Virus genome (UHGV): UHGV-0180032
From: a virus
Direction: 5' to 3' (one strand)
DNA length: 64,000 bases
Shown here piece by piece: positions 6,802 to 50,722 of the stretch. The first letter of the stretch is position 1. Each line of letters begins with the position of its first letter. Position numbers and translations under genes: made by a program. The notes beneath the pieces were generated by a model. The model was not told where the DNA came from. It did no database searches and saw nothing but the letters and a program-made list of their open reading frames with translations.

Positions 6802-6839
6802 TTACCTACGGACACACAACTGCCCGCAGGCAGCCTGTC

Positions 6840-11024: not shown

Positions 11025-11034
11025 AAAATTCTCC

Positions 11035-36197: not shown

Positions 36198-36222
36198 AAT
36201 TAAAAATACTCCGAGGTGAGCA

Positions 36223-36726
36223 ATGGGTTCATTTCTTAAAGTGCTTCCGTTCTTCATTCAGATGTTGATGGAAGCATTTAAACCAGGAGAAGGAGAAAAC
36301 GTATCAAGAGCAAACAAGATAATGACTTTAATCATCACGGTCTTGTTATCCTATTCGGCTTTCGTCTCCTATGCGTACGTAGTGCAGTTTCACAAGCTCG
36401 TTACAGTACAATCTCATGATCAATACATGTCGCAATCTTACCAAGAGATGAAGCAAGATCGTGACAAACTGAAAGATGATAATGGTAGACTATACGACAA
36501 GCTCTTTATTTGCCTCGGCCAGAAACCGCCATATGAAAGCGGGTACAGCTCGGTAAAAGAAGACAACTCTACCAAAGATTTAACACCTAAGAAACCAGAA
36601 ACTCCTGTTAGCCCAGCTTCAACACCAGAACAACGCAGAGAAGCTTCGGCGCGACCTGTTGGTAGTCAAAACGCTAACAGTTTCCGTCAGGAGATCATAA
36701 AGACGTTATCCTCACCTAAGGAGTAA
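36223..36726 (+). CDS. membrane protein with N-terminal TM helix and Pro-rich C-terminus
   Basis: GAGGTGA RBS; hydrophobic ...IMTLIITVLLSYSAFVSYAYVV; C-terminal PKKPETPVSPASTPEQ. Confidence 0.5.
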   Translation: MGSFLKVLPFFIQMLMEAFKPGEGENVSRANKIMTLIITVLLSYSAFVSYAYVVQFHKLVTVQSHDQYMSQSYQEMKQDRDKLKDDNGRLYDKLFICLGQKPPYESGYSSVKEDNSTKDLTPKKPETPVSPASTPEQRREASARPVGSQNANSFRQEIIKTLSSPKE

Positions 36727-36729
36727 CTG

Positions 36730-37185
36730 ATGAAATTGCTGTTATTCATCATGATTTTGTGCGTGGGTTTGGTGAGTAATAGCTATGGAGAACCCGGTAA
36801 ACGGCCATCCTATACTGCGTTACAACCTCCGCCAGCGCCGCCTATCATGCTAAATTGGAAGATTGATAAAGACGCGATGCGGGAATATGTTGCGGATGTG
36901 AATACATACGCTTATTACGTTTATCTCTACACACGAAACTTAAATCAACAAGCAGTCAAACGTGGGTGGAATCCACCGATGTTAGCACCTATCTGCGAAC
37001 GGTTTGAAATTCCTAAATTACATTCCGTTCCAGAAAAGATGTTATTAGACGACAAAGCGTTAACGCCACAAGAAATCAGTCTGGATTTGTCACGTAAACT
37101 GAATTCGTTGTTGTGGAATGATCGCTCTGACCGACAAGCTTTATTAGACGCCTACGATCAGTATCTGACAACGTGTTTGAACTGA
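36730..37185 (+). CDS. secreted hypothetical protein
   Basis: Signal-peptide-like MKLLLFIMILCVGLVSNSYG; starts 4 nt after the previous stop; terminator follows. Confidence 0.5.
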   Translation: MKLLLFIMILCVGLVSNSYGEPGKRPSYTALQPPPAPPIMLNWKIDKDAMREYVADVNTYAYYVYLYTRNLNQQAVKRGWNPPMLAPICERFEIPKLHSVPEKMLLDDKALTPQEISLDLSRKLNSLLWNDRSDRQALLDAYDQYLTTCLN

Positions 37186-37189
37186 CAAC

Positions 37190-37230
37190 GCCTCCTGTAT
37201 CCTTCGGGATACAGGAGGTATTTTCTTTTT
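37190..37230 (+). terminator. intrinsic terminator
   Basis: 12-bp stem CCTCCTGTATCC/GGATACAGGAGG with TTCG loop followed by TATTTTCTTTTT. Confidence 0.8.
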
Positions 37231-37272
37231 AACGTTTAACCCCCTTCTAATGTATAGAGAAAGGAGCTTAAC

Positions 37273-38007
37273 ATGACATACCCGAAAACGATTCAACCCA
37301 CCTTACCGACGCTGGTAATTGGTGCTGACGCAGAAACCAAATCACTGCGTCCTGATGCGTATCTGTTAACCACAGGCTTAGTTGCCTTTGACGTACCGAC
37401 TTTAAAAATGGTAGGGTCGTCGTATATGCGTATTGATCCTAACGACCCTAAAGCAAAAGCTGTGTTCCACGAAGATCCACAGACCGTAGGATGGTGGGAA
37501 GGTAAAGGGGAACCTGAATACGCGCCGTCTCGCGAAGCCTACACGGAAGCATGGAGCGGTACAACACCTATGCCGGAAGCGCTGTGGGCGATGCGTAAGT
37601 GGTTAGACGAAATCACCGGTAAACACAATTTCGTGATTACCATGCGTGGGCCGGATTTCGATTCTCCGATTTTCATGAACGCGTTTGCGCAATGTGACGT
37701 TCCTCCAGGTAAATTCCGTAAGTTCAGCGCGTTAGACAGTGACCGCACCGCAGAACGTTTAGCGCTGGCGTTTGGTTTTGAGCCTGATTTGACCGTTGAG
37801 CAAGTTTACTGGACGCGGGGCAAACCGGCATTTGAACACCATGCTTTGTGGGATGCCGCGAAAGAAGCTTATACCACCGCACGTATTTATCACCTTGCAC
37901 TGATTACCCGCGAGTACGGGTACGAACGTGCTAAAGCCTGTCACGAAGAACTGAAAACCGGTGAGTATATTCCACCACAGATTCGTGATCAGTTAACCAG
38001 GGATTAA
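37273..38007 (+). CDS. dexA: DEDDh-type 3'-5' exonuclease (DexA-like)
   Basis: Exo I-like VIGADAETKS, Exo II-like RGPDFDSPIF and Exo III-like EHHALWDAAKEAY motifs; AAAGGAG RBS. Confidence 0.55.
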   Translation: MTYPKTIQPTLPTLVIGADAETKSLRPDAYLLTTGLVAFDVPTLKMVGSSYMRIDPNDPKAKAVFHEDPQTVGWWEGKGEPEYAPSREAYTEAWSGTTPMPEALWAMRKWLDEITGKHNFVITMRGPDFDSPIFMNAFAQCDVPPGKFRKFSALDSDRTAERLALAFGFEPDLTVEQVYWTRGKPAFEHHALWDAAKEAYTTARIYHLALITREYGYERAKACHEELKTGEYIPPQIRDQLTRD

Positions 38008-38009
38008 GA

Positions 38010-39521
38010 ATGAAGAACGTTGATGTTGCTGTACTTTATACCGACGGTAGCCATTTAACCTCACCGATGGGAACAGGCGGTGGGATTCACGGCTACCTGT
38101 TTAACAAGGAAGAGATTGTTGACGGTGGCGTTTATCGCCACCCTACTATTCCCGAAGGGATTACGACCTCAGGCTATCGCCAGATTAACAAAGAGGAAAA
38201 ACTTCCTACGTTACCAGACTCTGTTGAGTTCGTGGACTGCGTTATTCCGGTACCGAAACACCACCACTCCGATGTTGCAGAGATTGTTGCTTTTTTAACC
38301 GTTTTTGAAAAAGCACCATTCGTTGCAAAAAACTACGTTATCTATATCGATGCGTCCTACGTTGTGAATACGTTTAACGATTGGATTGACGGTTGGGCTA
38401 AGCGGGACTGGCGACGGGCTGATGGCACCCCTATCGCGAACCTTGAGCTGGTTCAACGGATGTGGGAAATTAAGAAACGTCTGAAGCGTGAAGGGAAAGG
38501 GATTCGTGTTCTTAAAATCAAAGGACACTCTGGTCACTACGGTAACGAACGGGCTGACGAGCTGGCACGAAAAGGATCGTCCATCTCTGCACACGGAGAA
38601 GGCTTAGATTATCAAGCGTACTGGTCGGCAGACGAAATTCCGGAAGAACAGCAGGAAGAAATTGTCAGCGAAGGCGTTAACGTTGCCGCGTTTCCTGATA
38701 TTTGCGTAACCAAGTTCTGTTACCCGATGGTAAATGAGCAGCACCCTACGGTTAAAGTAAACGGTGAAAATCTCTATTACATGTTCGGGGGTAACCACGC
38801 AAAACAGAAGGACGATATTGTCTTCGTTGGGAAATACATTCCTGATGCGCAGTTCTGTGTGATGTTTACACGTGAGCCGTGGACGAACGTTTACGATTTG
38901 GTTAACGCCCACGCTGCTAAAGCCTGGGAGGGTGTACCACGTTTGCGTCAGTTTGACCCTATCGCTGTTGTGTTCAACTTGTTCGTAAAACGTAAGAAGT
39001 TTGCGGAAGCGGCGGCTAATGGCATTCCGGTTGACAAAATGCACTTTAGCGAAGACAAGAACCTGTGGATGTACGAAGACTTGTCTATCAGTCGTATTCT
39101 GCGTCCCGCGTTATTGTCATACCGCTGCATTTCCATTCGTGATGAACTGGCAGAATGGTTACGTGACTGTTTGGAAGGCAAATCGAACGTTGTCTTAAAC
39201 GACATTACCGATTTGCTTTATGACGAAAAAGGTAAACCCACCAAAGACTTTTACCGAAACGTGGATAAAGGGTTTGACGTTTCCATTAAAATCCCTAACG
39301 GGAAGGTTGCCGTTAAAACTATTTTGACACGTGCTATCGACTTACCGACGCGTACGGAAATCAACCGTATCAAAGAACCGAATGGACGATTCTACGTCGC
39401 TGTACGTCGTCCAGAACGTCAGTACGTTGAATACGCGTTAGTGTATATCGGTGAGAAGTATCACGGTCTGTGGTGTGGTTATTATTCAAACAAACGAATA
39501 TTGACCGATAAGGAACTTTGA
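38010..39521 (+). CDS. rnhA: RNase HI domain protein with a roughly 300-aa C-terminal extension
   Basis: N-terminal 190 aa contain the RNase HI hallmarks: ...LYTDGS..., E in AEIVAF, D in YIDASYVV, W..W..DG.PI.N, and KGHSGHYGNERADELAR. Confidence 0.8.
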   Translation: MKNVDVAVLYTDGSHLTSPMGTGGGIHGYLFNKEEIVDGGVYRHPTIPEGITTSGYRQINKEEKLPTLPDSVEFVDCVIPVPKHHHSDVAEIVAFLTVFEKAPFVAKNYVIYIDASYVVNTFNDWIDGWAKRDWRRADGTPIANLELVQRMWEIKKRLKREGKGIRVLKIKGHSGHYGNERADELARKGSSISAHGEGLDYQAYWSADEIPEEQQEEIVSEGVNVAAFPDICVTKFCYPMVNEQHPTVKVNGENLYYMFGGNHAKQKDDIVFVGKYIPDAQFCVMFTREPWTNVYDLVNAHAAKAWEGVPRLRQFDPIAVVFNLFVKRKKFAEAAANGIPVDKMHFSEDKNLWMYEDLSISRILRPALLSYRCISIRDELAEWLRDCLEGKSNVVLNDITDLLYDEKGKPTKDFYRNVDKGFDVSIKIPNGKVAVKTILTRAIDLPTRTEINRIKEPNGRFYVAVRRPERQYVEYALVYIGEKYHGLWCGYYSNKRILTDKEL

Positions 39522-40189
39522 TGCTGATTGTTTTTAGTCAAGCGTTATCGATGGCACCGAGTTATATCCAGATACGCTTTTCAGCAATTGCGCGTCAGCA
39601 GTGGGGCTTTAAAGCCCCCTATTCTGACGACCACTATACACTCGGAGAAGTAGCACTTGAACTCGCCTTACGCTCATTGTGGGAAATTATCGCATTGTAT
39701 AATGCAGGTTGTGATATACCGAAAGATTGTTTCCCACAACGGGTGATTGCGCAAGGTACTACGAACACTTACGGTAATCCGGCATTGGTAGAAGAGTGCT
39801 TAGGCTACGCTAACCAGTCTGGGGAATTGCAACACAACTTTAATCTGGTGATTAACAAAGTCTGGAGTGAGCTGGAAAGCTACCCTGAAAAGATTATCTG
39901 GTTTGATCGTAACCAATTCGTTAAGGAGGTGGCCAGTAAACGACCTGTACGTTTAGTTACCTTAAAACCCACCGACCTTGATTTGAAACAAACGTATCCC
40001 TTCCCGGAAGAAATTCAACTTTCTCCAGAAACTGTAGGTCACACTATTTTCAAACAAGGTGACGCCTGGATATTGCCTCACGATCTAGACCGTTACTTGC
40101 TCAACTCCGATCAGATTCACTCCGGCTATGATTCTCTCGTGAAAGCGTTTCACATCGATCCCTATTTCGCTAAAAATTTTCTTAGATAG
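39518..40189 (+). CDS. hypothetical protein (223 aa)
   Basis: ORF overlapping the upstream stop (ATGA). Confidence 0.45.
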   Translation: MMLIVFSQALSMAPSYIQIRFSAIARQQWGFKAPYSDDHYTLGEVALELALRSLWEIIALYNAGCDIPKDCFPQRVIAQGTTNTYGNPALVEECLGYANQSGELQHNFNLVINKVWSELESYPEKIIWFDRNQFVKEVASKRPVRLVTLKPTDLDLKQTYPFPEEIQLSPETVGHTIFKQGDAWILPHDLDRYLLNSDQIHSGYDSLVKAFHIDPYFAKNFLR

Positions 40190-40207
40190 ATATTATTCAG
40201 GTGTAGA
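40184..40207 (+). promoter_or_regulatory. conserved promoter-like motif, copy 3
   Basis: TAGATAGATATTATTCAGGTGTAG; upstream of gene 40227. Confidence 0.35.
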
Positions 40208-40226
40208 ACCTTCGGAGTTAATCACC

Positions 40227-40964
40227 ATGTTGAAAGTTTATGTCCCTCAATTACAACGTATTAATCCCTCGTTGTTCGAGGGATTCTTTTATAAAAACTG
40301 GCCACGGTTCTTCGAAGAATCCCTCAAAGATCCTAAGTGGACGACGATACAAGGGGAATTTTTCTGGACTGCACAATCGGCCTGTACCAATATCTTTGCT
40401 AACTTTATTGGCGAAGTTATCAACAGTATCAACTCAAATATTCCTTTTGACTTAGAAAACGTAACCGTAGACCTTACCGCGATTTACGACGGGTACGATT
40501 GTTCCGATGTTAACTTCGAACACTTCTCTTCGGAAGAGGTTTGGGAGAAAGTGTATAACTGGCTGGAACATTACGTTAATATGCTACTCTCACCGTCGAT
40601 GTTATCGGGGTTCAATAAAGCGATTCTTCCTATCTACCACGACTTACTGAACGTTAAAGTAACGACGGGTTTATTAGGTTACTGGTATTCCACCTACGAC
40701 ATGGAAAGCACGTTGTGGGAGAAACAAATCAACGCGTACGGTATCGAGTACGGTGACTTTGAAGAAGTCTATCGCGGTTACTGGCCACACAGTTTCTACA
40801 GAAACAGAGAAGTGGGCGAACCATATCTGTGGTCGTTTTATCGCTGCAACACCACAGGCGTTATTTATCTCGAAGACACCGGTGTACAAATCCCTAACGG
40901 TGCTGATGTGACGTATTGTCAAATACGCAAAGACCGGGGACACGTCATTTATAAGGATTATTAA
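40227..40964 (+). CDS. hypothetical protein (245 aa)
   Basis: ORF with upstream promoter-like motif. Confidence 0.5.
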   Translation: MLKVYVPQLQRINPSLFEGFFYKNWPRFFEESLKDPKWTTIQGEFFWTAQSACTNIFANFIGEVINSINSNIPFDLENVTVDLTAIYDGYDCSDVNFEHFSSEEVWEKVYNWLEHYVNMLLSPSMLSGFNKAILPIYHDLLNVKVTTGLLGYWYSTYDMESTLWEKQINAYGIEYGDFEEVYRGYWPHSFYRNREVGEPYLWSFYRCNTTGVIYLEDTGVQIPNGADVTYCQIRKDRGHVIYKDY

Positions 40965-40965
40965 C

Positions 40966-41508
40966 ATGAAATTACTTATTGATTTCTCTCTGAGCTCGTC
41001 ACGCGACAGGCTAAACAAAATACTTACTGAAATGCGAAGTAAGGTGAGGTTAGAACTGCACGACGCAATAGCAGTGTACGAGAGAAAACTGACGAAAGAG
41101 AACAACGGGGAAACCGTGGTGATCTTAGACGCTAAGGCGATGGTGGATTTTCTGGTAGACATGTTAGAAAGGCGGATTCACGCGGTGATAGAGCGACCTT
41201 ACTTAGTTCGTGTAACTGACCCAGACACTACGGTAGAATCAATACTGGAAAAGGCGTTCGTCGACGCAGCACACTATTTACAAAGGCATTCCCCAGACGA
41301 TTTCGAAACGATTTACGTTGGCGTTATACAGCAACAGAATGCTGAAACCAACATCGTGGATACCGTCTGCTGGAGCGATATCCTTACTAATGAAACCATA
41401 TCTCGTGTCCGAGACATCTTTATTGAAAATTTGGCATTAGTGAAAAGGGTGTGCAGTTCCGAGATTATTTACTTGTCATCAAAATACGAAAAAACTAAAG
41501 GAGTATAA
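40966..41508 (+). CDS. hypothetical protein (180 aa)
   Basis: Tightly packed ORF. Confidence 0.5.
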   Translation: MKLLIDFSLSSSRDRLNKILTEMRSKVRLELHDAIAVYERKLTKENNGETVVILDAKAMVDFLVDMLERRIHAVIERPYLVRVTDPDTTVESILEKAFVDAAHYLQRHSPDDFETIYVGVIQQQNAETNIVDTVCWSDILTNETISRVRDIFIENLALVKRVCSSEIIYLSSKYEKTKGV

Positions 41509-41510
41509 CC

Positions 41511-42035
41511 GTGGATATTTTAATTCAATTTCGTAAGAAAACAACCATTACCACGCCGATTGAGTTAGAGGAGAAAATCTCTAGCGCGGTTGCACGCAAG
41601 CTCTGTGGTGCTCACGGCTTTAGCAGTCATCAAGAACGGGTCGTTACTGCCGCCACATTACACAACTTACGACACACAGTACATTACTGTTTAGTTGACA
41701 ACGTCACCATCACTCTTGATGATACCGCAAAAGTCGACCAACTGCGTCGTGAAATTGACCACAAGATCGGCGTTTATAAAAGACGTTTTGATCGTGCCTG
41801 TGCACGTTTAACCGACAACGAGGCATTATGGAAACGTTTGAAACTTGAAATTGAGTATGCTGCGCAGCGTTACGGGATTGGCGGTACCGAACCGTTGCTG
41901 ACCGAACAAGAAATCATGTTAGCAATCGAAGTTTACATCACCGTTTGTCTCGCCATCCTAAAAGAAACCAACTACGAAATTACAAAAGCGTTGTTAAACA
42001 CCGCTGACAGTCTCCACTCAATCTTAGGACAGTAA
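41511..42035 (+). CDS. hypothetical protein (174 aa)
   Basis: GTG start with AAAGGAGTA RBS. Confidence 0.45.
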   Translation: MDILIQFRKKTTITTPIELEEKISSAVARKLCGAHGFSSHQERVVTAATLHNLRHTVHYCLVDNVTITLDDTAKVDQLRREIDHKIGVYKRRFDRACARLTDNEALWKRLKLEIEYAAQRYGIGGTEPLLTEQEIMLAIEVYITVCLAILKETNYEITKALLNTADSLHSILGQ

Positions 42036-42036
42036 A

Positions 42037-42525
42037 ATGAACTTAAATGATATTATCAATCTTAGTAAAAGTGATATTGTGCATGAATTTCTCAATCACG
42101 GTGCGCGTGTAAGAAAAGAAATTGAAGAAAAGTTGGCCCCAACGGTTGCTTCCACTCCTTGGATGGCAGATTACGCTGCGGACTACTTCAGTTGCCAGAG
42201 CGTAATAGCATACATAGCTAACCTGTTTGATTTCTTCAATCCATCAAACGACCACATAACAGAAACAGACGTTCGACAACGCCTTCGCGATTGCCGGTAT
42301 CAGTTCTTAAGAAAAGTTACTGATGCGTACAATTTAGAGAAATTTCCTACACCGATTGTTCCCTATACAGAACCGGAATGGGAAAATTTTTATAGACGAA
42401 TTTGGATTGGTGGGTCTTACGTGGCAGATATCATGGAAATCATCGAACGTAGTGAAAACCTACTTTCCTTACAGCTATGGGAGTGGCTAAAAGCTAACTA
42501 TCCTGACTACGTCAAATTCGACTAA
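42037..42525 (+). CDS. hypothetical protein (162 aa)
   Basis: ORF followed by terminator. Confidence 0.5.
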   Translation: MNLNDIINLSKSDIVHEFLNHGARVRKEIEEKLAPTVASTPWMADYAADYFSCQSVIAYIANLFDFFNPSNDHITETDVRQRLRDCRYQFLRKVTDAYNLEKFPTPIVPYTEPEWENFYRRIWIGGSYVADIMEIIERSENLLSLQLWEWLKANYPDYVKFD

Positions 42526-42530
42526 TAGAC

Positions 42531-42561
42531 ACCCTAGCTTCGGCTAGGGTAACTTTATTTT
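42531..42561 (+). terminator. intrinsic terminator
   Basis: ACCCTAGC/GCTAGGGT stem with TTCG loop followed by a T-rich tract. Confidence 0.65.
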
Positions 42562-42583
42562 AACCATTTTAGGAGCATATACC

Positions 42584-43516
42584 ATGTATTTGTACAAAAG
42601 TAAAAAAGTAAAAGGTATTAGAGACTGCCTTAGACAAATGGGGAGTCAGCATCTAGAAAATGTCATGGAAGAAAATCAAACAAAAGAAAATCCTGTCTCG
42701 AAATGGATAAAAAAGAATCGTAAGCATTTAACTAATGCCTTTATACCCTACGACGCTGAGTTAGGTCTCAAAGATCCCCGTTCCCTTCACGCACAAACAT
42801 TGGCAATTGGATGGCTATACGGTGGTGCTTCCTTAATATCCAATCGAGCACTTAGAGAACTTGTTTTCGAGACTGAGATGCCCAGTAAATTCCCCGAAGA
42901 ATGGTTGGACTTTATACCCACATGGACTGTGGCAATCGATGTAGGTAAAGAGGATGAGACTTTCTTTCTCGGTTATCGAAAAAACGGGGAGAGAAGGTTT
43001 ATTATAATTGCTACAAATACTGATTACGGGTTAACAGAAGGCGTTACCACGATCGCCACCTGCTCGTTAGAGATATGTAGCGTTGGAAACGGGCTTGTTG
43101 AAATCGATTATACAACTGGCGTACAGACCGAACAAGAGAAGACGTTATGGCTATCACTGGCCAAAACCGCCATATCGTTGATATTTCTCTGTACGCTAAT
43201 CCCGCCTAATCTCAGAGGGTCTTTCAATGACATTAAGTTCAAAGAAATCAAAAAGAATGGTAGCATAAGTCACGAAATCAAACCTCGTGAACGTGACGTT
43301 AAAATAGACATCACGCCAGGACAAGTGAAATATCTAAAGGGATTTAACACCGACTTGAAAACCATGGAAGGTATCAAACACGCCAAGGCTGCACATATTC
43401 GTCGTGCGCACTGGCGTAGATACTGGGTTGGCCCAAGAAACGGTGAAAGGAAGAGAAAACTTTACTGGATTCCACCGACATTTGTCCGAGGTTACGTACC
43501 CCACACGCAAGACTAG
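42584..43516 (+). CDS. hypothetical protein; paralog pair with C-terminal AHIRRAHW-R-W-GP motif
   Basis: AGGAGCA RBS; C-terminus KAAHIRRAHWRRYWVGPRNG...WIPPTF. Confidence 0.55.
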   Translation: MYLYKSKKVKGIRDCLRQMGSQHLENVMEENQTKENPVSKWIKKNRKHLTNAFIPYDAELGLKDPRSLHAQTLAIGWLYGGASLISNRALRELVFETEMPSKFPEEWLDFIPTWTVAIDVGKEDETFFLGYRKNGERRFIIIATNTDYGLTEGVTTIATCSLEICSVGNGLVEIDYTTGVQTEQEKTLWLSLAKTAISLIFLCTLIPPNLRGSFNDIKFKEIKKNGSISHEIKPRERDVKIDITPGQVKYLKGFNTDLKTMEGIKHAKAAHIRRAHWRRYWVGPRNGERKRKLYWIPPTFVRGYVPHTQD

Positions 43517-43526
43517 GAGAATTATA

Positions 43527-44411
43527 ATGTTAAGACGCAGAATTTATGGAGACACGCTTCGACGTATTAGTGAAGCTATAGAGACTGCACACAAAGACTT
43601 GTTTGGTCTGAAAGAAGATCGTTTTCTAACGTTTGTCAGGGAACACAAGAGACAACTTCCCGTAACCTTTCTGCCCGTTAACGACCCAACGTACCGTGAG
43701 TTCGGCACCACCAAACAGGTGCCGTATTCTATCCGTCAATCATTAGGTTTGGGTTGGCAATACGCAGGTATTGAAATTATCTCTGATAACGAGTTGATGG
43801 CGTTACTTGCAGACACAGAACGTTTAACGGATATTCCGTACGCGTGGATTGAAGCCATCCCTTCATTCACCTTTTCCGTGACTGTCAAGATTAACGAACT
43901 TCCTGCTACGCTCTTTATCGGTCGTCGTAAATTCGAAGGTGAAGAAGTATTGTTCGTTTTACGGTGGGTGGAGATAAATCAGCGGCACTGTTGGACAACC
44001 AAGATTTATCGGTTCAACAGAAAGGCAGATGACTTTGTTAGTTTAGAGCCTTACTTTGCTAACGAGTCAAAGGACGAGGAACTTCTGGATGAGGTACATA
44101 TCGGTTTATATCTTTCCTCGCGGGTGAAGAAATCGGATCGCGAGAGACGGGAATACCGTGGTAGAACGACACGTTACGTACCTGATACAGAAATCCTTCC
44201 ACGCAGAGAACCTGTCGTTGTTGACGTCAGTCCAGTACAACGCGAAGACTTAGAGAAGCAACGCAGGGAAGGCAGGAGAATCTGTTTAACGCCGCATCGT
44301 GCTGCACACATACGCAGGGCACACTGGAAACGGGTCTGGTGTGGGCCAATGACAGGACCACGCTGGCAGGAGTGGCGATGGATTGCACCCACCTTTATAT
44401 CTGGTTTTTAG
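43527..44411 (+). CDS. hypothetical protein; paralog of 42584-43516
   Basis: AGGAGA RBS before ATG 43527 (track start 43404 overlaps the upstream gene); C-terminus RAAHIRRAHWKRVWCGPMTG...WIAPTF; also shares mid-region GW-Y-G motif. Confidence 0.55.
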   Translation: MLRRRIYGDTLRRISEAIETAHKDLFGLKEDRFLTFVREHKRQLPVTFLPVNDPTYREFGTTKQVPYSIRQSLGLGWQYAGIEIISDNELMALLADTERLTDIPYAWIEAIPSFTFSVTVKINELPATLFIGRRKFEGEEVLFVLRWVEINQRHCWTTKIYRFNRKADDFVSLEPYFANESKDEELLDEVHIGLYLSSRVKKSDRERREYRGRTTRYVPDTEILPRREPVVVDVSPVQREDLEKQRREGRRICLTPHRAAHIRRAHWKRVWCGPMTGPRWQEWRWIAPTFISGF

Positions 44412-44426
44412 CGTGAAAATAAAGAT

Positions 44427-44473
44427 TACCCCTAGACCTTGTGGTCTAGGGGTAGCTTTTACTTTTTATTTTT
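44427..44473. terminator. bidirectional intrinsic terminator
   Basis: 12-bp stem TACCCCTAGACC/GGTCTAGGGGTA followed by a T-rich tract; between convergent gene ends 44411 and 44466. Confidence 0.7.
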
Positions 44474-45221
44474 TGTTTGCCTTCAGCGCTTTCAGGCGTT
44501 CAGCCGTCACGTTCAGACATTCAATCAATTCGTTCACTTGTTTCATGAACAAGCCAAACAGTTCAACCCAATCGGATGCAAAGTCTAACATCGCTGTCAG
44601 TTCTTTTGCTACGTTAGGATGGATGTTTTGTTCAGACAGAATCGTTGCAGAAGCTTTAATGGACTCGATGGATTTGTCGATGTTCGTACGAAGTTTCTTC
44701 GTAATTTCAACGTTCAGTGCTTTTGCACGGTTAAACGCAATATCGATTTCCGTAGCACTGTGATACGTTTTCTCAATCGGACGCTGGTCAATAACGTTGT
44801 TGGTGTAAGACTTAGCCAACTGGTTAACCAGGTCTTTCGGATTCACGTTACGTAACGGAATGTTAACGTTTTTATAACGGAAACCGATAGGTAATGACAG
44901 TACGCCCACATCATGTGTAAGGGCGGAAAGTTGCAACTCAACAGGTAAAAGGACACCGTCGTAGATCTTCTGTAAGGAACTCCACACCGATTCTAAGCGG
45001 TTAATGTGATCCATTACGTAGGTATTGAAGCCTGGCGGTACAATAACCAACATGCCTGCAAAGTGTAAGAATTTTTCCTGTTGCATCCACTTGGAAACGT
45101 CTGACATGTCGTCGTAAGTGGTTAATGCAATCTCTTGTTGAGGGCCACTGAACCCTTTGGGTAAGATTGCAGACGCTTTAGCGGCAAAGCTAGTTAACGC
45201 TGCAAGTGGATTTACGTTCAT
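44466..45221 (-). CDS. hypothetical protein (251 aa)
   Basis: Isolated minus-strand ORF with GAGG RBS; terminator at its 3' end. Confidence 0.5.
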   Translation of the reverse strand: MNVNPLAALTSFAAKASAILPKGFSGPQQEIALTTYDDMSDVSKWMQQEKFLHFAGMLVIVPPGFNTYVMDHINRLESVWSSLQKIYDGVLLPVELQLSALTHDVGVLSLPIGFRYKNVNIPLRNVNPKDLVNQLAKSYTNNVIDQRPIEKTYHSATEIDIAFNRAKALNVEITKKLRTNIDKSIESIKASATILSEQNIHPNVAKELTAMLDFASDWVELFGLFMKQVNELIECLNVTAERLKALKANKK

Positions 45222-45318
45222 TTAAAACCTCGGATTATAAGTCAGGGTTACATAGTAAAGTCTTTTTACAGTTCATCCTGAACTTATGACCGAGATTATC
45301 TCATAAAGGTAAAGCTCG

Positions 45319-45618
45319 ATGAAAATCAAATTACTGACTCGAAACACCACGCCTCGTCTGGAACCGGAAATCTATCTTACCCCGGTGAAAAAAGACAAAG
45401 AAGGTAAGCCTATTCAAGTAGGTAAGATTCTTAGCGTGACCTCTTTACCTAACGGTAAGCGCGTGATGGAATTAGAAATCGACGAGCGCAACAAACGTCG
45501 TTTCGAGTCTATTGAGAACCCCTATCCTGAAAAATCGGAAGAAGTCACCGAGTGGGCAGAGACCTACTTTGAATTCTGGCACAAACGTCGCCTTCTTCTT
45601 CCGACCAAGAATCGTTAA
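45319..45618 (+). CDS. hypothetical basic protein (99 aa)
   Basis: ORF immediately upstream of the recombinase gene. Confidence 0.45.
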   Translation: MKIKLLTRNTTPRLEPEIYLTPVKKDKEGKPIQVGKILSVTSLPNGKRVMELEIDERNKRRFESIENPYPEKSEEVTEWAETYFEFWHKRRLLLPTKNR

Positions 45619-45633
45619 TTATTGGAGCGCTAA

Positions 45634-47130
45634 ATGGCAGGCCCAACTAAGCAAGTTATCGGTGAAGTAATTCGTCCTCGTTTTAACGTTTATACCATCA
45701 TGGACCACGCCTTAGGCAACTACGAAAGAGGCGAAGATGGTTTGTACTACCTTAACGGTGGTTTTGCCCACATCATGGGTTTCGCGGGTCGTGGTAACAC
45801 CTTCAAATCTACACTGTTGGATTTCTGTATCTTCCAAATCCTACAACGCTATAAAGCAGAGTGGGGTTCGAAATACGATACCGAAGTGTCTGCTGCCCTC
45901 GATCGCTTAGAGACCGGTTATATTTCTGCCATGCACGCCAACGGTATTGACGATGGAACTTCGGTACTGGAACTTATTCACGAAGGTCGTTATAACCTCG
46001 TTGGTTCTGACGTGATGCCTGGGGAACAGTATTACAGTGACTATATTCGTGACGAAGTGGAAAAACGCTTCAAGCAGTATATGTCTGGTAAAACCCGCGT
46101 AACACCGTTCCTTGACCCGGTTCGTCGTAAGCAAAAAGAAATCCTTGACCCGTGGCTGTATTCTATCGACTCCCTGTCTGAGTGGCACTCGTCTTCTCTG
46201 GAAGACAAGCACGCTAAAACGGATATCGGTGATTCCGATCAGAACATCCTCAACGCCCACGATGCCTTACAGAAATCGAACATGATGAGCCGTTGGCCGT
46301 CTGCGTTTGCCCGTGGCGGTTTCTACATGGGCTTTGTTGCACAGATGGCGGACGACTCCGGTAAGGCGATGGCGGGTGGTCGTCAAGGACAGAAAGCAAA
46401 CGCGAAACTGCTGGACGATGCGAACGACGATCTCAAATTCGCAGGAATTCCTCGTCGTCAGTTAAGCTTCCTGACCAACTCGTTTATTGTTGCGACAAAA
46501 TCAGGCGAGCTGAAAAAAGACCAGAGTTATAACGCCCAGACCGGTGTTAACGAAGAACTTTACCCAACCGCACGTTCAAAAGCCATGAACGCATCGGTTA
46601 ACGACCTGAAAGTTATCACCTTTACACAATACCGTGCTAAAGGCGGTCACACAGGCGTGAAGTTCCAGATGATCTTCTCGCAAGAGATGGGTCTACTGTA
46701 CCACCTGAGCCTGTGGCATTACCTGAGTGACACCCTGAAAAAATCCGAATTTGGCTTTACGTCCAGCGGTAGTGGTGGTTCCATTAAAGAACTCCAGATT
46801 CTGCCTGGTGTTAAATTCCAGCGTACGACGATTCGTGACATGATCGACGATAACCCGAAACTGCGTCGGGCATTAGAAATCACGGCTGCGATTGCGTACA
46901 TGCAAAACAACTACCATCGTTTAGAGGTTAAATACCACCTCACGATGGAAGAAATCTACAAACTCATTGATGAAAAATGGGATTGGAATGAGATTCTGGA
47001 AAACACCGTAGAATACTGGATGTTTAAAGACCAGGAAACGAAAGGTGGTAAACGTACGTTAACTGCCCGTACGATTCTGGGTATGGCCGTGGACGGCCTG
47101 GAACCGAAGTTCCTGACCAAAAAGAAATAA
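45634..47130 (+). CDS. uvsX: UvsX/RecA-family recombinase
   Basis: N-terminal ...YLNGGFAHIMGFAGRGNTFKSTLLDFCIFQILQRY parallels T4 UvsX ...GGMQSGLLILAGPSKSFKSNFGL...YMRQY as recalled from memory; size of 498 aa is appropriate. Confidence 0.6.
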   Translation: MAGPTKQVIGEVIRPRFNVYTIMDHALGNYERGEDGLYYLNGGFAHIMGFAGRGNTFKSTLLDFCIFQILQRYKAEWGSKYDTEVSAALDRLETGYISAMHANGIDDGTSVLELIHEGRYNLVGSDVMPGEQYYSDYIRDEVEKRFKQYMSGKTRVTPFLDPVRRKQKEILDPWLYSIDSLSEWHSSSLEDKHAKTDIGDSDQNILNAHDALQKSNMMSRWPSAFARGGFYMGFVAQMADDSGKAMAGGRQGQKANAKLLDDANDDLKFAGIPRRQLSFLTNSFIVATKSGELKKDQSYNAQTGVNEELYPTARSKAMNASVNDLKVITFTQYRAKGGHTGVKFQMIFSQEMGLLYHLSLWHYLSDTLKKSEFGFTSSGSGGSIKELQILPGVKFQRTTIRDMIDDNPKLRRALEITAAIAYMQNNYHRLEVKYHLTMEEIYKLIDEKWDWNEILENTVEYWMFKDQETKGGKRTLTARTILGMAVDGLEPKFLTKKK

Positions 47131-47137
47131 AAGCGTT

Positions 47138-47160
47138 AGGGTAGGGTAATCCCCTACCCT
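47138..47160 (+). other. intergenic RNA hairpin without U-tract (possible processing or attenuation site)
   Basis: AGGGTAGGG/CCCTACCCT stem immediately followed by the AAGGAG RBS of the next gene. Confidence 0.4.
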
Positions 47161-47175
47161 AGCTAAGGAGTCGTT

Positions 47176-47475
47176 ATGCGTTATCAAACGGAGATTGTGG
47201 AACGCTTAAGCGAAGGTTTAGCCAGCGTCAGTCTGGAAACAGCAGCGGCATTTCGTGAGACTTTCGCTACTTTCTTTCCCGATCGTGAATCTTTTTGTTT
47301 AAAGGTCGGTGAATATTATTCCAAGTTACTCGAACACTACGGTTATCCGCCTGTGAAATTCGACGTACCTGAAAACACCGACGACATCAGTTATTGGATT
47401 GAAACCCTCGAAGCAGGGACACTTTCCAACTTGCGTAAGGCGGTAGAAAATGAAACTCGATCCAGCGCGGCGTAA
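47176..47475 (+). CDS. hypothetical protein (99 aa)
   Basis: AAGGAG RBS. Confidence 0.5.
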   Translation: MRYQTEIVERLSEGLASVSLETAAAFRETFATFFPDRESFCLKVGEYYSKLLEHYGYPPVKFDVPENTDDISYWIETLEAGTLSNLRKAVENETRSSAA

Positions 47476-48118
47476 AAAAGCAGAAGCTTACGCCTTACAA
47501 ATCTTAAGCCTGGTTGACCCCTCTGGGATTAACGCGGAAGCAGCAAAGAAAGCCTTTGCACGAATGACGGACGAACAGTTTAATCGTCTTCGTGAAGGGC
47601 TACCGATTTACAACCCGGTCGGCAGTAAAGTTAAAATCGACCACATGCGAAACATCGAACTATGTCGTGTTTTAGGTTTGAACCTGGAACAACGGTTGTG
47701 GTTAACTGAACCGAAAACGGGTGTTTTCCATCGTACCCGCTACCCGCATCTGGTGCTACGTTTACCTGCACGTCGTCAAACGCAGATGCAAGAGAAGAAA
47801 ATGGCGGTAGCGAAGAACGACAAAGTTCGTGATAAACTCTCCGGCCAGGTTGTTGGTCCTTCTAAAGCATCTGGTGTGTCTTTCCCAGAAGCGTACATCA
47901 TGTACTCCGATGGTCACGACTGGACACTGAAGGAGTTTCTGTGGGCGCGTGGGGGTAACGAAGCGTTACAACGTGCGTTCTATCAATCGTTACGCCAAAC
48001 CGGTAAGGGACGTATTGACCTACCGGGGGCAGAACGTACCAGTTCAAAAGCAACGCGTACCTGGTCTGCGTATCTGAAAGCGATGCACATTGGTAACAAC
48101 ATAGGCCATCCGTCATGA
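47450..48118 (+). CDS. hypothetical protein (222 aa)
   Basis: ORF overlapping the upstream gene end. Confidence 0.5.
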   Translation: MKLDPARRKKAEAYALQILSLVDPSGINAEAAKKAFARMTDEQFNRLREGLPIYNPVGSKVKIDHMRNIELCRVLGLNLEQRLWLTEPKTGVFHRTRYPHLVLRLPARRQTQMQEKKMAVAKNDKVRDKLSGQVVGPSKASGVSFPEAYIMYSDGHDWTLKEFLWARGGNEALQRAFYQSLRQTGKGRIDLPGAERTSSKATRTWSAYLKAMHIGNNIGHPS

Positions 48119-48837
48119 GATTTTCTCGACGTTTTTTGATTGATATCGATGCGTTGTTTGACACCCGAATCGGTTGGGTCAAAGCCATCAAACCTGAAAG
48201 ATTGGAAATTATGGATTACGACGTTTATCGTCGTCGTTTTACGGAGGAATGGGCGACTGTCTTGGGGTTTGAGAATTGGAAAGAGGAGTATCAGAAACGC
48301 GATAAACGTGCGTTGATGAATGCGGAACCCACCGAACTGTTGTTGACGATGAAGAACGAGTTCGAATGCATGTTACTCGAAATCGAGATGCATTCGCCTA
48401 TCGAAAAACCGACGTTGACGATTAACACCTGGCCGTATACTGACCTTACTGACCAAGAAATGCAAACGTTCTTGCAGATGTTCCGTATCTATTACGATAT
48501 GGTGCAGGTTGAGCTAGTGTCGTGGCCGCATTCGGAGCTTACGCCAGGTCGTTTAGCGACAGCTTGGGATTGCTGGATAATGTACGATTGGTTCGCTTGG
48601 ATTGAACTCAATGCGAAACATCTGAAAAAGCCTATCCCTAGCTTTACCATTACACACCCTGCCCTGCTAACACCGGAGCTTACAAAAGAGACGGTAGAGC
48701 AGCTTAAACGCGATGGTGTAAATCCGTTCAAGGAACACATCCGGTTTATGGCAGAGTGGGTCGGTGTCGACCCACGTGATTCTGCGCTATTTAGTCTGGC
48801 TCGTCCGAAGAAGGACGCGCAAACGCCGCAGTCATAA
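48115..48837 (+). CDS. hypothetical protein (240 aa)
   Basis: ATGA-coupled ORF; 3' end overlaps the convergent gene. Confidence 0.5.
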   Translation: MRFSRRFLIDIDALFDTRIGWVKAIKPERLEIMDYDVYRRRFTEEWATVLGFENWKEEYQKRDKRALMNAEPTELLLTMKNEFECMLLEIEMHSPIEKPTLTINTWPYTDLTDQEMQTFLQMFRIYYDMVQVELVSWPHSELTPGRLATAWDCWIMYDWFAWIELNAKHLKKPIPSFTITHPALLTPELTKETVEQLKRDGVNPFKEHIRFMAEWVGVDPRDSALFSLARPKKDAQTPQS

Positions 48838-49255
48838 TGGACTTCACGTCAATTTGTTCGCCAACCGGAGCCAACTCCCCTTCCGAGATTTCTACGTTAG
48901 GAATGTCTGGAAGGGTGGGTTGGTAACTATTATTTTCATCAGGTTCTTCGTCGTGACGTTTTATTTTCACGTTGCCACGCTGCATCAGAATCGTATTCAG
49001 TGCGTTAGCCAAGTCTTGGTTCGCTTCACTGTTTTTCTGGGCAGCGGCAACACGACGTTTAGAAATGATTTGCTTATCTAGGTCGTTTAATAACGTCCCG
49101 ATACGATCCACGGTCTTTAAGTCTTTGTGAGCATTAGGATCGTCTAAGATTAGATTGACAATTCTGACACGAGCTTGTTGCGTTTGGCGGAGAAGCGATT
49201 CTTCGTCGTCTACTTCACCATCTAACGCCTGGTATTTCACTTCTTCTTCAGCCAT
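48791..49255 (-). CDS. hypothetical acidic protein (154 aa)
   Basis: Minus-strand ORF with GAGGTGG RBS; convergently overlaps 48115-48837 by 47 nt. Confidence 0.45.
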   Translation of the reverse strand: MAEEEVKYQALDGEVDDEESLLRQTQQARVRIVNLILDDPNAHKDLKTVDRIGTLLNDLDKQIISKRRVAAAQKNSEANQDLANALNTILMQRGNVKIKRHDEEPDENNSYQPTLPDIPNVEISEGELAPVGEQIDVKSIMTAAFARPSSDEPD

Positions 49256-49284
49256 TTAAAACCACCTCATTTTCAAAAAGAAGT

Positions 49285-49310
49285 CAGACAGATATTATTT
49301 ACGTGAGACA
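49285..49310 (+). promoter_or_regulatory. conserved promoter-like motif, copy 4
   Basis: CAGACAGATATTATTTACGTGAGACA; upstream of gene 49328. Confidence 0.35.
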
Positions 49311-49327
49311 TTCTTTCGGAGTGAATT

Positions 49328-49876
49328 ATGTTTACAGGATTAATAACGCGTTTTAAGAAACGTCTACAGCAAAAGCGTTTACAGGCTCTCAGAGAGTCTC
49401 TAAGGCAGGAGTTTCATAAGAACATCCATAACCCCTACGTGAGAACGTTTAGCGGCTTACGGTTGCTTACGTTGCCTATAAACGTAGATACCGAACCCTA
49501 CCACCCCAGCTTACGTGGTAATCTCGAGTTACGCGTCGCTAATCTCGATATTCTTTACCAACGTCTTGCTTTTTATATCAACGAATACCAACGCACGATT
49601 AACGGAACGTCTATCGAGTGGTTATCGCTGCCAGAGTCGTTAAGTAAACAAAAAGACTCATCGGAAAACCGCTGGTTAGACACTTATTTTGGGACGTCCA
49701 ATCCGGCGGTTGCCTATTATAAGCTAACGCAGTTACTCGAGCTTATCGAACCTTACGAAGACATTTTCTTAAAGCCCAAGACCGATGAAGATCGGGCATT
49801 GGTAAATCACTGTGCACATTTGTTTCGTGAAATGGAGGTACTCATCGAACACTACCTTTTAAACCGACCTGTTTAA
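49328..49876 (+). CDS. hypothetical protein (182 aa)
   Basis: ORF downstream of a promoter-like motif, GGAG RBS. Confidence 0.5.
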   Translation: MFTGLITRFKKRLQQKRLQALRESLRQEFHKNIHNPYVRTFSGLRLLTLPINVDTEPYHPSLRGNLELRVANLDILYQRLAFYINEYQRTINGTSIEWLSLPESLSKQKDSSENRWLDTYFGTSNPAVAYYKLTQLLELIEPYEDIFLKPKTDEDRALVNHCAHLFREMEVLIEHYLLNRPV

Positions 49877-49909
49877 TAACCAGTTAACCCCTTGTAACAA
49901 GGTGAAGTG

Positions 49910-50722
49910 ATGGATAACGAAGCAAAAGCAAAACTGCAACGAGACGAAGACGAACGTGCGGGTAAACCGTTGCAAAAACTTTACTGGGAATATAAAACTC
50001 AGATTGGGTGGGAACCTAAAGATTATAAGCTTGCAGTTGCAAGACACATCCTATCCCCTGATTTCCGCACACGTTCGAAGGCCGTTCTCGAAGATCGAGT
50101 ACAACGCATCTCAACGAAACTTACCTCGGGTAACAACCGTGACTTACCGGTTGACCTTACGTGGCGTGGGTTCACGGAAGGGTTAGTGATTACCGGAGTG
50201 GAATCGTTGAGAATCTGTATAACGACTTACCGTGGACGTTTCCAGACAAAAACCATTTCTGAAGTCACCACACGAGTGCGTGACGATCTTATCCGCTACG
50301 ATTTTGAAGACTGTAACGAGAAACCGACGGCCAGTGCCAGTACGGAACTGAATCGTTTCTTCCGAGATTGTGCGGGAACCGCAAAGACGATGGAGCACCC
50401 CCTTTCGAGACTCTTGTGGACAATCTTTGCGAATATCAAAATGACTTCGGATTGGTGGCATCGACTTTCAACGAACTATGTTAATAATCCAGAGAACTGT
50501 CTTCCTATCTCTTCTAAACGCAATGACATGCGGCACAATATGCAGCACAACATGCGACTGAAAAAGAAGCTGTCTTGGAAATGGTTTATGAGGATACTCA
50601 AGGCGATTGATGTGAAGAAATTCGACATTCTGTTGACGTTAAAACGCAAAAACGACAACAAGATTTACGAAGTCGTTCACACGGTTGACCTCGAGGCTTA
50701 TCAATTTCGGAGTACAGAATGA
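49910..50722 (+). CDS. hypothetical protein (270 aa)
   Basis: ATG 49910 with AGGTGA RBS. Confidence 0.5.
   Translation: MDNEAKAKLQRDEDERAGKPLQKLYWEYKTQIGWEPKDYKLAVARHILSPDFRTRSKAVLEDRVQRISTKLTSGNNRDLPVDLTWRGFTEGLVITGVESLRICITTYRGRFQTKTISEVTTRVRDDLIRYDFEDCNEKPTASASTELNRFFRDCAGTAKTMEHPLSRLLWTIFANIKMTSDWWHRLSTNYVNNPENCLPISSKRNDMRHNMQHNMRLKKKLSWKWFMRILKAIDVKKFDILLTLKRKNDNKIYEVVHTVDLEAYQFRSTE

What the first reader, a model, noticed from the sequence alone, without database searches (positions are those of the whole stretch)
42584..44411. Paralog pair with conserved C-terminal A-H-I-R-R-A-H-W ... W-x-G-P ... W-I-x-P-T-F motif
Two adjacent 300-aa proteins share a strongly basic, His/Trp-rich C-terminal block (KAAHIRRAHWRRYWVGPRNG.../RAAHIRRAHWKRVWCGPMTG...) and a mid-region GW-Y-G-(A/G) motif but diverge elsewhere. 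The basic block looks like a nucleic-acid-binding module that I cannot assign to any known family.
Basis: seen in the sequence. Interest (0 to 1): 0.45.

Follow-up and report, generated by a model that had tools for sequence, protein, structure and literature searches.

The report
Tandem AcrVA2/FinQ-like genes in jumbo phage
The two adjacent genes are a duplicated pair of AcrVA2/FinQ-family proteins in an SPN3US-like jumbo phage of Enterobacter, so the "unassignable" basic His/Trp block is the known C-terminal motif that the anti-CRISPR AcrVA2 needs to destroy its target's mRNA; this makes them new members of a named family whose targets here are unknown.

Summary
ORF A (42584-43516, 310 aa) and ORF B (43527-44411, 294 aa) are full-length paralogs (BLASTP E 2e-24, 26% identity). 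They share GW-x-Y, AAHIRRAHW, W-x-GP and WI-x-PTF.

Three things are new here:
- Relatives carry one copy or none at this locus; this lineage carries a tandem duplication.
- Among strains about 98% identical elsewhere, the N-terminal three quarters of A is a hypervariable allele. A's C-terminus and all of B are conserved.
- Two similar hairpins bracket the pair.

The most likely function is two target-specific co-translational silencers of host or rival-element proteins, probably not Cas12a. Verdict: new members of a known kind, moderate interest.

The parts
42531..42550 (+). Upstream stem-loop ACCCTAGC-TTCG-GCTAGGGT followed by a T-rich tract. It is probably the terminator of the upstream gene block and the left boundary of the two-gene unit.
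   Evidence: Found by the terminator scan and read in the sequence. It is one of only two CCCTAG..CTAGGG hairpins in the 64 kb window, against 0.04 expected by chance.
42570..42575 (+). Ribosome-binding site TAGGAG, 8 nt before the ATG of ORF A.
   Evidence: Read in the sequence.
42584..43516 (+). ORF A, an AcrVA2/FinQ-like protein of 310 aa.
   Evidence: Supported. dN/dS against orthologs is 0.12-0.21.
42584..43317 (+). Hypervariable N-terminal and middle part of ORF A (about residues 1-245). This is the inferred target-recognition region.
   Evidence: Nucleotide identity to otherwise roughly 98%-identical relatives falls to 50-80% (L006) and 79-95% (L009, L010) in this stretch only. dS is 0.38-1.3 against a background of about 0.1.
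42812..42814 (+). Codon of Trp77 of ORF A in the GW-x-Y motif, equivalent to AcrVA2 W79.
   Evidence: Shown by the alignments. The column is at least 90% conserved in the 107-sequence family alignment.
43394..43414 (+). Codons of H271-I-R273-R-A-H276-W277 of ORF A, equivalent to AcrVA2 H286/R288/H291.
   Evidence: H271, R273 and H276 are invariant in the 107 sequences. The equivalence to AcrVA2 comes from the alignments. The functional data are in Marino et al..
43514..43519 (+). Ribosome-binding site TAGGAG for ORF B. It overlaps the TAG stop codon of ORF A, and the intercistronic gap is 10 nt.
   Evidence: Read in the sequence.
43527..44411 (+). ORF B, an AcrVA2/FinQ-like protein of 294 aa and the conserved paralog.
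   Evidence: Supported. Its orthologs carry PF26125. It is 97-99% identical among relatives, with dN/dS 0.03-0.11.
44307..44327 (+). Codons of H261-I-R263-R-A-H266-W267 of ORF B. Trp77 and Asp87 lie at 43755-43757 and 43785-43787.
   Evidence: Positions; alignment.
44426..44455 (.). A 13-bp stem-loop (TTACCCCTAGACC-TTGT-GGTCTAGGGGTAG) with T-runs on both strands. It is a bidirectional terminator between ORF B and the convergent 251-aa gene, and it forms the right boundary of the unit.
   Evidence: Found by the terminator scan on both strands, read in the sequence and matched by the motif search.

Best explanation
ORF A and ORF B are a lineage-specific tandem duplicate of an AcrVA2/FinQ-family gene (Pfam PF26125). 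They sit at a variable accessory locus of an SPN3US-like jumbo phage that infects Enterobacter. By analogy with AcrVA2, each protein most likely works in two steps. First, its divergent N-terminal and middle domains bind a specific polypeptide, probably the nascent chain of a host defence protein or of a protein from a rival mobile element. Second, its conserved, basic C-terminal beta-hairpin module (A-H-I-R-R-A-H-W ... W-x-G-P ... W-I-x-P-T-F) triggers loss of the mRNA that is being translated. The two paralogs would then silence two different targets. A is the fast-changing specificity allele that is swapped by recombination between strains, and B is the stable one. Shown here: paralogy, family membership, fold, conservation of the functional residues, purifying selection, operon layout and allele mosaicism. 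Inferred: the silencing activity, the nascent-chain mode of recognition, and what the targets are. Confidence in family membership is about 0.95; the 0.55 below is for the mechanism as a whole.
For: Family membership:
- phmmer of A hits AcrVA2 7ci1 at E 3.3e-4 on the motif.
- A profile of the window clade finds 2035 representative proteins at E<=1e-3. Most are 300-370 aa and are matched from the GW motif to the C-terminus.
- A 107-sequence profile built from those hits matches AcrVA2 residues 12-318 of 323 at E 1.3e-38.
- Orthologs of both genes carry PF26125 'AcrVA2-like'.
- hhalign of the window clade against FinQ gives probability 97.5%, E 6e-12, over 220 columns.

Fold:
- The AF2 model of A has pLDDT 86.6 and pTM 0.85.
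- Foldseek against the PDB gives one significant hit, 7ci2_A, at E 2.6e-9.

Functional residues:
- H271/R273/H276 in A and H261/R263/H266 in B lie in invariant family columns. They align with AcrVA2 H286/R288/H291.
- Alanine mutants of those AcrVA2 residues lose mRNA downregulation but still bind Cas12a (paper 10.1101/2022.11.29.518452).
- W77 in both proteins aligns with AcrVA2 W79, which contributes to binding or stability.

Domain logic:
- Marino et al. report conserved C-termini and divergent N-termini across the family.
- Here A's variation is confined to residues 1-245, while its C-terminus stays 91-99% identical.

The genes are real and expressed as a unit:
- dN/dS is 0.03-0.21.
- Both genes have TAGGAG sites, the gap between them is 10 nt, and hairpins flank the pair.

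Accessory, arms-race character:
- The gene is absent from SPN3US itself, which has a 62-bp gap at the locus.
- It is present as alleles only 40% identical in EC001 and SaP7, which are assigned to the same species.
- It is only 25-31% identical to these relatives, although the neighbouring UvsX-like gene is 81% identical.
Against: - No experiment bears on these two proteins. Only two members of a family of roughly 2000 clusters (AcrVA2 and FinQ) have any functional data, and how the C-terminal motif causes mRNA loss is unknown.
- The direct sequence match to AcrVA2 is significant only in the C-terminal 45-55 residues. Full-length homology rests on intermediate sequences and on the fold.
- ORF A has Asn87 where AcrVA2 has D89, a residue whose mutation moderately weakens AcrVA2. 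ORF B keeps Asp.
- For a lytic jumbo phage, blocking new synthesis of a host protein does nothing against protein already present. Marino et al. raise the same caveat.
- ORF B itself was not modelled.
Confidence: 0.55

Rival explanations
1. A and B act together as a heterodimer on a single target, rather than as two independent silencers. B would be the conserved scaffold or effector subunit and A the exchangeable specificity subunit.
For: AcrVA2 is described as a homodimer, and a natural protein with two AcrVA2-like domains matches the two chains of 7ci1 (paper PMC12230656). One of the representative proteins, P0092 (565 aa), carries a partial copy followed by a full copy. The two window genes are 10 nt apart, and the ribosome-binding site of B overlaps the stop codon of A. 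The pair is kept together on every related contig recovered. A varies while B does not.
Against: Related phages make do with a single copy, so a homodimer or monomer is sufficient for the family. Both paralogs keep the full set of conserved motif residues, so neither looks like a degenerate scaffold. No complex prediction could be run.
Confidence: 0.2
2. The C-terminal block is itself a nucleic-acid-binding or RNA-cleaving module. The invariant His/Arg/His would form a metal-independent RNase-type active site that cuts the mRNA directly once the N-terminal part has docked on the nascent chain. This would refine the best explanation rather than exclude it.
Confidence: 0.25
3. They are true anti-CRISPRs that silence Cas12a, as AcrVA2 does.
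For: They belong to the same family as AcrVA2 and keep its functional motif.
Against: Identity to AcrVA2 is only 16-18%, and the target-binding N-terminal part is not conserved. Marino et al. find that most family members occur in bacteria without Cas12a, and FinQ targets F-plasmid transfer genes instead. The closest deposited relative was deposited as a plasmid of an Enterobacter ludwigii strain, and the related cultured phages infect Salmonella, E. coli and Erwinia; from my own knowledge, not tested here, type V-A CRISPR systems are not typical of Enterobacterales. No Aca-type HTH gene lies nearby.
Confidence: 0.05
4. The proteins do something other than target-specific silencing. Examples would be regulating the phage's own gene expression or excluding co-infecting phages by an unrelated mechanism. 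In that case the motif is conserved for structural reasons.
For: Function is known for only two family members. The gene is absent from SPN3US, so it is dispensable for the basic lytic cycle. All phage homologs are annotated as hypothetical.
Against: Invariance of His/Arg/His across very divergent members argues for a shared chemical or interaction role. The presence/absence pattern and the allele diversity fit a conflict gene better than a housekeeping regulator.
Confidence: 0.15

Closest known systems
AcrVA2 (Moraxella bovoculi prophage anti-CRISPR; PDB 7CI1/7CI2; Marino et al. bioRxiv 10.1101/2022.11.29.518452)
   Different: Identity is only 16-18%, and the N-terminal and middle parts are not alignable by direct pairwise search. 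The window genes are in a virulent-type jumbo phage, not a prophage, and they are not next to AcrVA1 or an aca gene. They form a tandem pair rather than a single gene. ORF A has Asn at the D89 position. The target is almost certainly not Cas12a.
FinQ (fertility-inhibition protein of IncI-type conjugative plasmids in E. coli and Salmonella)
   Same: It is in the same family. hhalign of the window clade against FinQ gives probability 97.5%, E 6e-12, over 220 columns from the GW/YW motif to the C-terminus. FinQ carries RPHIRRGHWHTYWTG...LIWLPPVPV. It comes from Enterobacterales, like the likely host here. It is reported to lower the mRNA of a rival element's genes.
   Different: FinQ is encoded on conjugative plasmids, 595 plasmid records in all, not on phages. 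It is 363 aa, with a different N-terminal region. Its target (F tra genes) is irrelevant to a phage. NCBI names FinQ, but annotates the window-type proteins as hypothetical.
Single-copy homologs at the syntenic locus of SPN3US-like jumbo phages (Asesino gp235, ChrisDB gp236, EC001 MGA_211, SaP7; PHROG 6160)
   Same: They occupy the same position, between a block of small unknown genes and the convergent 251-aa gene, the 99-aa gene and the UvsX-like gene. They belong to the same PHROG (E 1e-37 and 4e-22). They have the same motifs. Asesino's copy is also flanked by two copies of one hairpin.
   Different: They are single genes, and are only 25-31% identical to A or B although the flanking genes are 60-85% identical. 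SPN3US itself has no gene at this position.

Membership tests
AcrVA2-like family (Pfam PF26125; AcrVA2/FinQ) | Significant match to the family's sequence model. | tested here: met
   PF26125 is recorded for P0001 (91% identical to A), P0002, P0003, P0004 and P0005 (B-type). It is also recorded for both tandem genes on L006 and L009-L012. The local Pfam copy lacks this model: 0 of 107 family members hit anything relevant. The match was therefore confirmed independently: the A3 profile hits AcrVA2 at E 1.3e-38 over residues 12-318, and hhalign to FinQ gives 97.5%.
AcrVA2-like family (Pfam PF26125; AcrVA2/FinQ) | The AcrVA2 three-domain fold: a helical N-terminal part, an alpha/beta middle domain and a small C-terminal beta-hairpin domain. 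| tested here: met
AcrVA2-like family (Pfam PF26125; AcrVA2/FinQ) | The conserved C-terminal H-x-R-x-x-H residues (AcrVA2 H286, R288, H291) that are required for activity. | tested here: met
   The residues are H271/R273/H276 in A and H261/R263/H266 in B. These columns are invariant in 107 sequences and aligned to AcrVA2.
AcrVA2-like family (Pfam PF26125; AcrVA2/FinQ) | The conserved N-terminal-domain residues W79 and D89 of AcrVA2. | tested here: inconclusive
   The Trp is present in both proteins as W77, in a column at least 90% conserved. The Asp is present in B as D87 but is Asn87 in A and in its 91%-identical ortholog P0001. P0002 and P0003 have Asp.
AcrVA2-like family (Pfam PF26125; AcrVA2/FinQ) | Causes translation-dependent, polypeptide-specific loss of a target mRNA. 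| not testable with these tools
   This needs expression, RNA-seq and pull-down experiments. It is known only for AcrVA2, and FinQ lowers tra mRNA.
Type V-A anti-CRISPR (functional class) | Inhibits Cas12a, which must be present in the host, and recognises its LSKT N-terminal motif. | not tested
   The host genome was not examined. The closest deposited relative is in Enterobacter ludwigii. Marino et al. note that most orthologs occur without Cas12a.
Type V-A anti-CRISPR (functional class) | An acr-aca operon layout, with an adjacent HTH regulator. | tested here: not met
   The neighbouring genes have no HTH or any other Pfam domain, and their PHROG families are of unknown function.
FinQ fertility inhibition | Encoded on a conjugative (IncI-type) plasmid and acting on F transfer genes. 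| tested here: not met
   The context is a phiKZ/SPN3US-like jumbo phage, with UvsX-like, split RNA polymerase beta, virion and baseplate genes. FinQ loci are on conjugative plasmids.

The most novel reading that the evidence does not exclude
The pair is a natural two-part system for silencing genes by recognising their nascent peptides. A conserved partner (B) and a recombinationally exchangeable specificity cassette (the N-terminal 245 residues of A, swapped between otherwise clonal phages at a hairpin-bounded locus) act as a heterodimer or in parallel against non-CRISPR host defence proteins in Enterobacterales. This would show that AcrVA2-type co-translational mRNA destruction is a general counter-defence strategy that can be retargeted by cassette exchange, and that lytic jumbo phages use it.
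Probability: 0.15. Interest if true: 0.7.

Novelty: new member of a known kind. Interest (0 to 1): 0.38.

Why it matters
AcrVA2 is the only prokaryotic protein reported to destroy a specific mRNA after recognising the peptide that mRNA encodes. How it does so is still unknown, and so is what the roughly 2000 other family clusters target.

This locus offers a tractable natural experiment. It holds two paralogs with the same effector motif and different recognition parts. One of them exists as several diverged alleles in otherwise near-identical phages of a culturable Enterobacter host. Comparing those alleles could reveal the targets and the specificity code. Motif mutants could be used to trap the partners.

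For annotation, both genes should be named AcrVA2/FinQ-like instead of "hypothetical". The same applies to PHROG 6160 and to the RefSeq proteins WP_311383487.1 and WP_305771585.1.

Tried and rejected
- **Local family libraries.** Pfam and NCBIfam scans of A, B and close orthologs at E<=10 returned nothing. A scan of all 107 family members showed that the local Pfam copy simply lacks the model. These are therefore not evidence against membership.
- **First structure prediction.** The 8-sequence alignment failed, with pLDDT 42, and the model was discarded. The 107-sequence alignment worked.
- **Rejected or unavailable jobs.** The afdb50 fold library was unavailable.
- **Word-indexed protein search.** It found only 6 close relatives even when given a profile. 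The exhaustive HMMER search was needed to see the family.
- **Literature search for 'FinQ'.** It returned almost only unrelated words.
- **Third copy in the window.** None found.
- **Paralogy among the three small upstream genes** (180, 174 and 162 aa). None detected, with E 9.5 and 0.14.
- **Sigma-70 promoter scan.** It found fewer sites than in shuffled sequence. This is uninformative for a phage that has its own RNA polymerases.
- **Positive selection as the cause of A's variability.** Rejected. dN/dS is 0.12-0.21 and dS is 3-10 times the background. This points to exchange of old alleles, not rapid in-place change.

Full report
**Observation**

The window holds two adjacent + strand genes. 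ORF A runs 42584-43516 and encodes 310 aa. ORF B ends at 44411. The ORF listing extends B back to a GTG at 43404, which would overlap A. Gene callers on five related contigs start it at the ATG at 43527 instead, giving 294 aa. That ATG is preceded by TAGGAG (43514-43519), which overlaps A's stop codon.

The two proteins align end to end with BLASTP E 2e-24 at 26% identity. The last 50 residues have pI 11.3 and 12.0 and are rich in His and Trp, whereas residues 1-240 are near neutral. A profile scan of all six frames finds no third copy in the window.

**What it is**

Local Pfam and NCBIfam scans were empty. PHROGs places both proteins in phrog_6160, of unknown function (E 1e-37 and 4e-22).

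A phmmer search of PDB sequences with ORF A hit one protein at a significant E-value: the anti-CRISPR AcrVA2 (7ci1, E 3.3e-4). The match lies on the motif, HTKRPHIRRGHWHGYWQG...VRWQPAVFV.

An exhaustive HMMER search of 1.84 billion representative proteins, using a profile of the window clade, found 2035 clusters at E<=1e-3 and 155 at E<=1e-10. Most are 300-370 aa and are matched from the GW motif to the C-terminus.

A 107-sequence alignment of these hits has five invariant columns, in ORF A numbering: H271, R273, H276, W281 and G283. Five more are nearly invariant: W77, P104, P112, W295 and P298. The profile of this alignment matches AcrVA2 residues 12-318 of 323 at E 1.3e-38.

The precomputed Pfam label on orthologs of both genes is PF26125 "AcrVA2-like". 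The local Pfam copy lacks that model, since 0 of 107 members hit it.

tblastn with AcrVA2 finds 595 plasmids, mostly conjugative E. coli and Salmonella plasmids, where the gene is annotated finQ. hhalign of the window clade against FinQ gives 97.5% probability and E 6e-12 over 220 columns. The pair therefore belongs to the AcrVA2/FinQ family.

**What the motif means**

Marino et al. [quoted passage not shown] H286A, R288A and H291A abolish the mRNA loss but still bind Cas12a. W79A and D89A weaken function.

The equivalents here are as follows:

| AcrVA2 | ORF A | ORF B |
|---|---|---|
| H286 | H271 | H261 |
| R288 | R273 | R263 |
| H291 | H276 | H266 |
| W79 | W77 | W77 |
| D89 | N87 (Asn) | D87 (Asp) |

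The same paper reports about 1800 orthologs on mobile elements, including megaphages. Most occur without Cas12a, and they have conserved C-termini and divergent N-termini. Al-Shayeb et al. had already noted AcrVA2-like proteins in huge phages.

A 2026 review and 2025 meeting abstracts still list the decay mechanism as unknown. The fold searches show no resemblance to any known nucleic-acid-binding or nuclease domain above noise.

**Genomic setting**

The window is part of a phiKZ/SPN3US-like jumbo phage. It encodes a UvsX-like protein 81% identical to SPN3US gp216, an RNA-polymerase beta fragment, baseplate and giant virion proteins, and thymidylate synthase.

A circular record of 222,441 bp is 95% identical to the window over 36000-50000. 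It is deposited as "plasmid unnamed1" of Enterobacter ludwigii 51A:C (NZ_CP134650.1) and carries the same pair, annotated as hypothetical. This suggests that the host is Enterobacter.

In Asesino, ChrisDB, EC001 and SaP7, a single homolog occupies exactly this position. It lies upstream of the convergent 251-aa gene, the 99-aa gene and the UvsX-like gene. SPN3US itself has only a 62-bp gap there. EC001 and SaP7, which are assigned to the same species, carry alleles only 40% identical.

The window proteins are 25-31% identical to these homologs, whereas the downstream neighbours are 60-85% identical. This is therefore a variable accessory locus, and the tandem pair is a duplication specific to the window's lineage.

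**Population-level pattern**

Five metagenomic contigs (L006, L007, L009-L012 less L008) and the Enterobacter record (L013) all keep the A-B pair; a sixth contig, L008 (1,252 bp), ends before B's position. Against L006, L009 and L010, whose nucleotide identity to the window is about 93-100% in nearly all other 150-nt windows, three patches diverge:

| Patch | Gene | Identity to relatives |
|---|---|---|
| 40331-40930 | 245-aa gene | 59-72% in all three |
| 41981-42570 | 162-aa gene | 43-76% in L010 and L006; 94-99% in L009 |
| 42570-43317 | First three quarters of ORF A | 50-80% in L006; 79-99% in L009 and L010 |

A's C-terminus and all of B stay at 91-99%.

Nei-Gojobori estimates give dN/dS of 0.12-0.21 for A and 0.03-0.11 for B. 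A's dS is 0.36-0.96, against about 0.1 for B, the UvsX-like gene and the RNase H-like gene. Both genes are thus under purifying selection. A's diversity reflects exchange of old alleles rather than recent positive selection in place.

L009 and L010 share an identical A but differ in the adjacent 162-aa gene. The cassettes therefore recombine independently, with a junction near the hairpin at 42531-42550.

**Unit boundaries**

The pair is bracketed by two stem-loops with the same core. The first is ACCCTAGC-TTCG-GCTAGGGT at 42531-42550. The second is a 13-bp bidirectional terminator at 44426-44455. These are the only CCCTAG..CTAGGG hairpins in the 64 kb window, against 0.04 expected by chance.

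Asesino's single gene is likewise flanked by two copies of its own hairpin, TACCCACTCC..GGAGTGGGTA. SPN3US, which has no gene there, has one copy of that hairpin in the gap. EC001 has a different upstream hairpin together with the conserved downstream one. This suggests cassette gain or exchange next to a terminator stem-loop. I did not test that further.

**Mechanism proposed**

Each paralog is a target-specific silencer of the AcrVA2 type. Its variable N-terminal and middle domains recognise a polypeptide, probably a nascent chain. Its invariant basic C-terminal hairpin module triggers loss of the mRNA being translated. Two paralogs would give two targets, with A as the rapidly exchanged specificity.

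Shown here are the family, the fold, the residues, the selection pattern, the operon layout and the mosaicism. Inferred are the activity, the mode of recognition and the targets. Cas12a is an unlikely target given the host group, the 16-18% identity to AcrVA2 and the family's general distribution.

There are four rivals:
- **A:B heterodimer.** AcrVA2 is dimeric and two-domain fusions exist. The genes look translationally coupled, and B is conserved while A varies.
- **Direct RNase or RNA-binding role for the block.** This is unproven, and only noise-level fold hints support it.
- **Genuine anti-Cas12a activity.** This is unlikely.
- **An unrelated function.**

**Verdict**

The finding is real, but the family is known and named, and its presence in large phages has been reported. 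I rate it a new member of a known kind.

The modest added value lies in the lineage-specific tandem duplication, the contrast between a hypervariable and a conserved paralog, the presence/absence polymorphism, the hairpin bracketing and the missing annotation. Interest is moderate, because the family's mechanism and targets are still open questions and this locus is a usable handle on them.

Noticed in passing
window 42531-42550 and 44426-44455; L001 5833-5862 and 6836-6862; L005 7795-7822; L002 2752-2776 and 3750-3778: The AcrVA2-like pair is bracketed by the only two CCCTAG..CTAGGG stem-loops in the window, against 0.04 expected by chance. Asesino's single copy is also bracketed by two copies of its own hairpin core. 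SPN3US, which lacks the gene, has one such hairpin in the 62-bp gap. This may mark cassette insertion or exchange at a terminator stem-loop.
   Followed up: partly
window 40331-40930 (inside the 245-aa gene 40227-40964, phrog_8219) and 41981-42570 (the 162-aa gene 42037-42525, no family): Two further hypervariable cassettes, at 43-76% nucleotide identity, occur in relatives that are otherwise roughly 98% identical. They recombine independently of ORF A. Both encode proteins of unknown function, so together with ORF A this 4-kb stretch looks like an accessory, possibly counter-defence, island.
   Followed up: partly
L013 = NZ_CP134650.1 (Enterobacter ludwigii 51A:C 'plasmid unnamed1', 222,441 bp, circular): A jumbo-phage genome 95% identical to window 36000-50000 is deposited and typed as a non-mobilizable plasmid. 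This points to Enterobacter as the host, and to either a carrier state or co-sequenced phage DNA. Both AcrVA2-like genes are annotated as hypothetical in that record.
   Followed up: partly
L005 (SPN3US JN641803) 7769-7832 compared with L002 (EC001) 2818-3741 and L003 (SaP7) 2875-3798: Within one species (Seoulvirus SPN3US), the AcrVA2-like gene is either absent (SPN3US) or present as alleles only 40% identical (EC001, Lh1B and JN03 against SaP7).
   Followed up: yes
window 1562-15357, minus strand: Three giant tandem genes (1728, 1394 and 1440 aa) encode paralogous virion structural proteins. They cross-hit phrog_7449, 8078, 7557 and 2163, mainly through a shared N-terminal region. This is a second, much larger paralog family in the window.
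   Followed up: no
window 37273-38007 and 38010-39521: An Rv2179c-like 3'-5' exoribonuclease and a 503-aa RNase H-like ribonuclease lie 3-5 kb upstream of the pair. Both are conserved in SPN3US (gp206, gp207). Any link to mRNA decay triggered by the AcrVA2-like proteins is pure speculation.
   Followed up: no
P0092 (565 aa): This family member carries a partial AcrVA2-like copy (residues 14-129) fused in front of a full copy (192-558). It is consistent with the two-domain homolog described in PMC12230656 and with dimeric function in the family.
   Followed up: partly
window 1-64000: ARAGORN found no tRNA or tmRNA genes anywhere in the window.
   Followed up: yes
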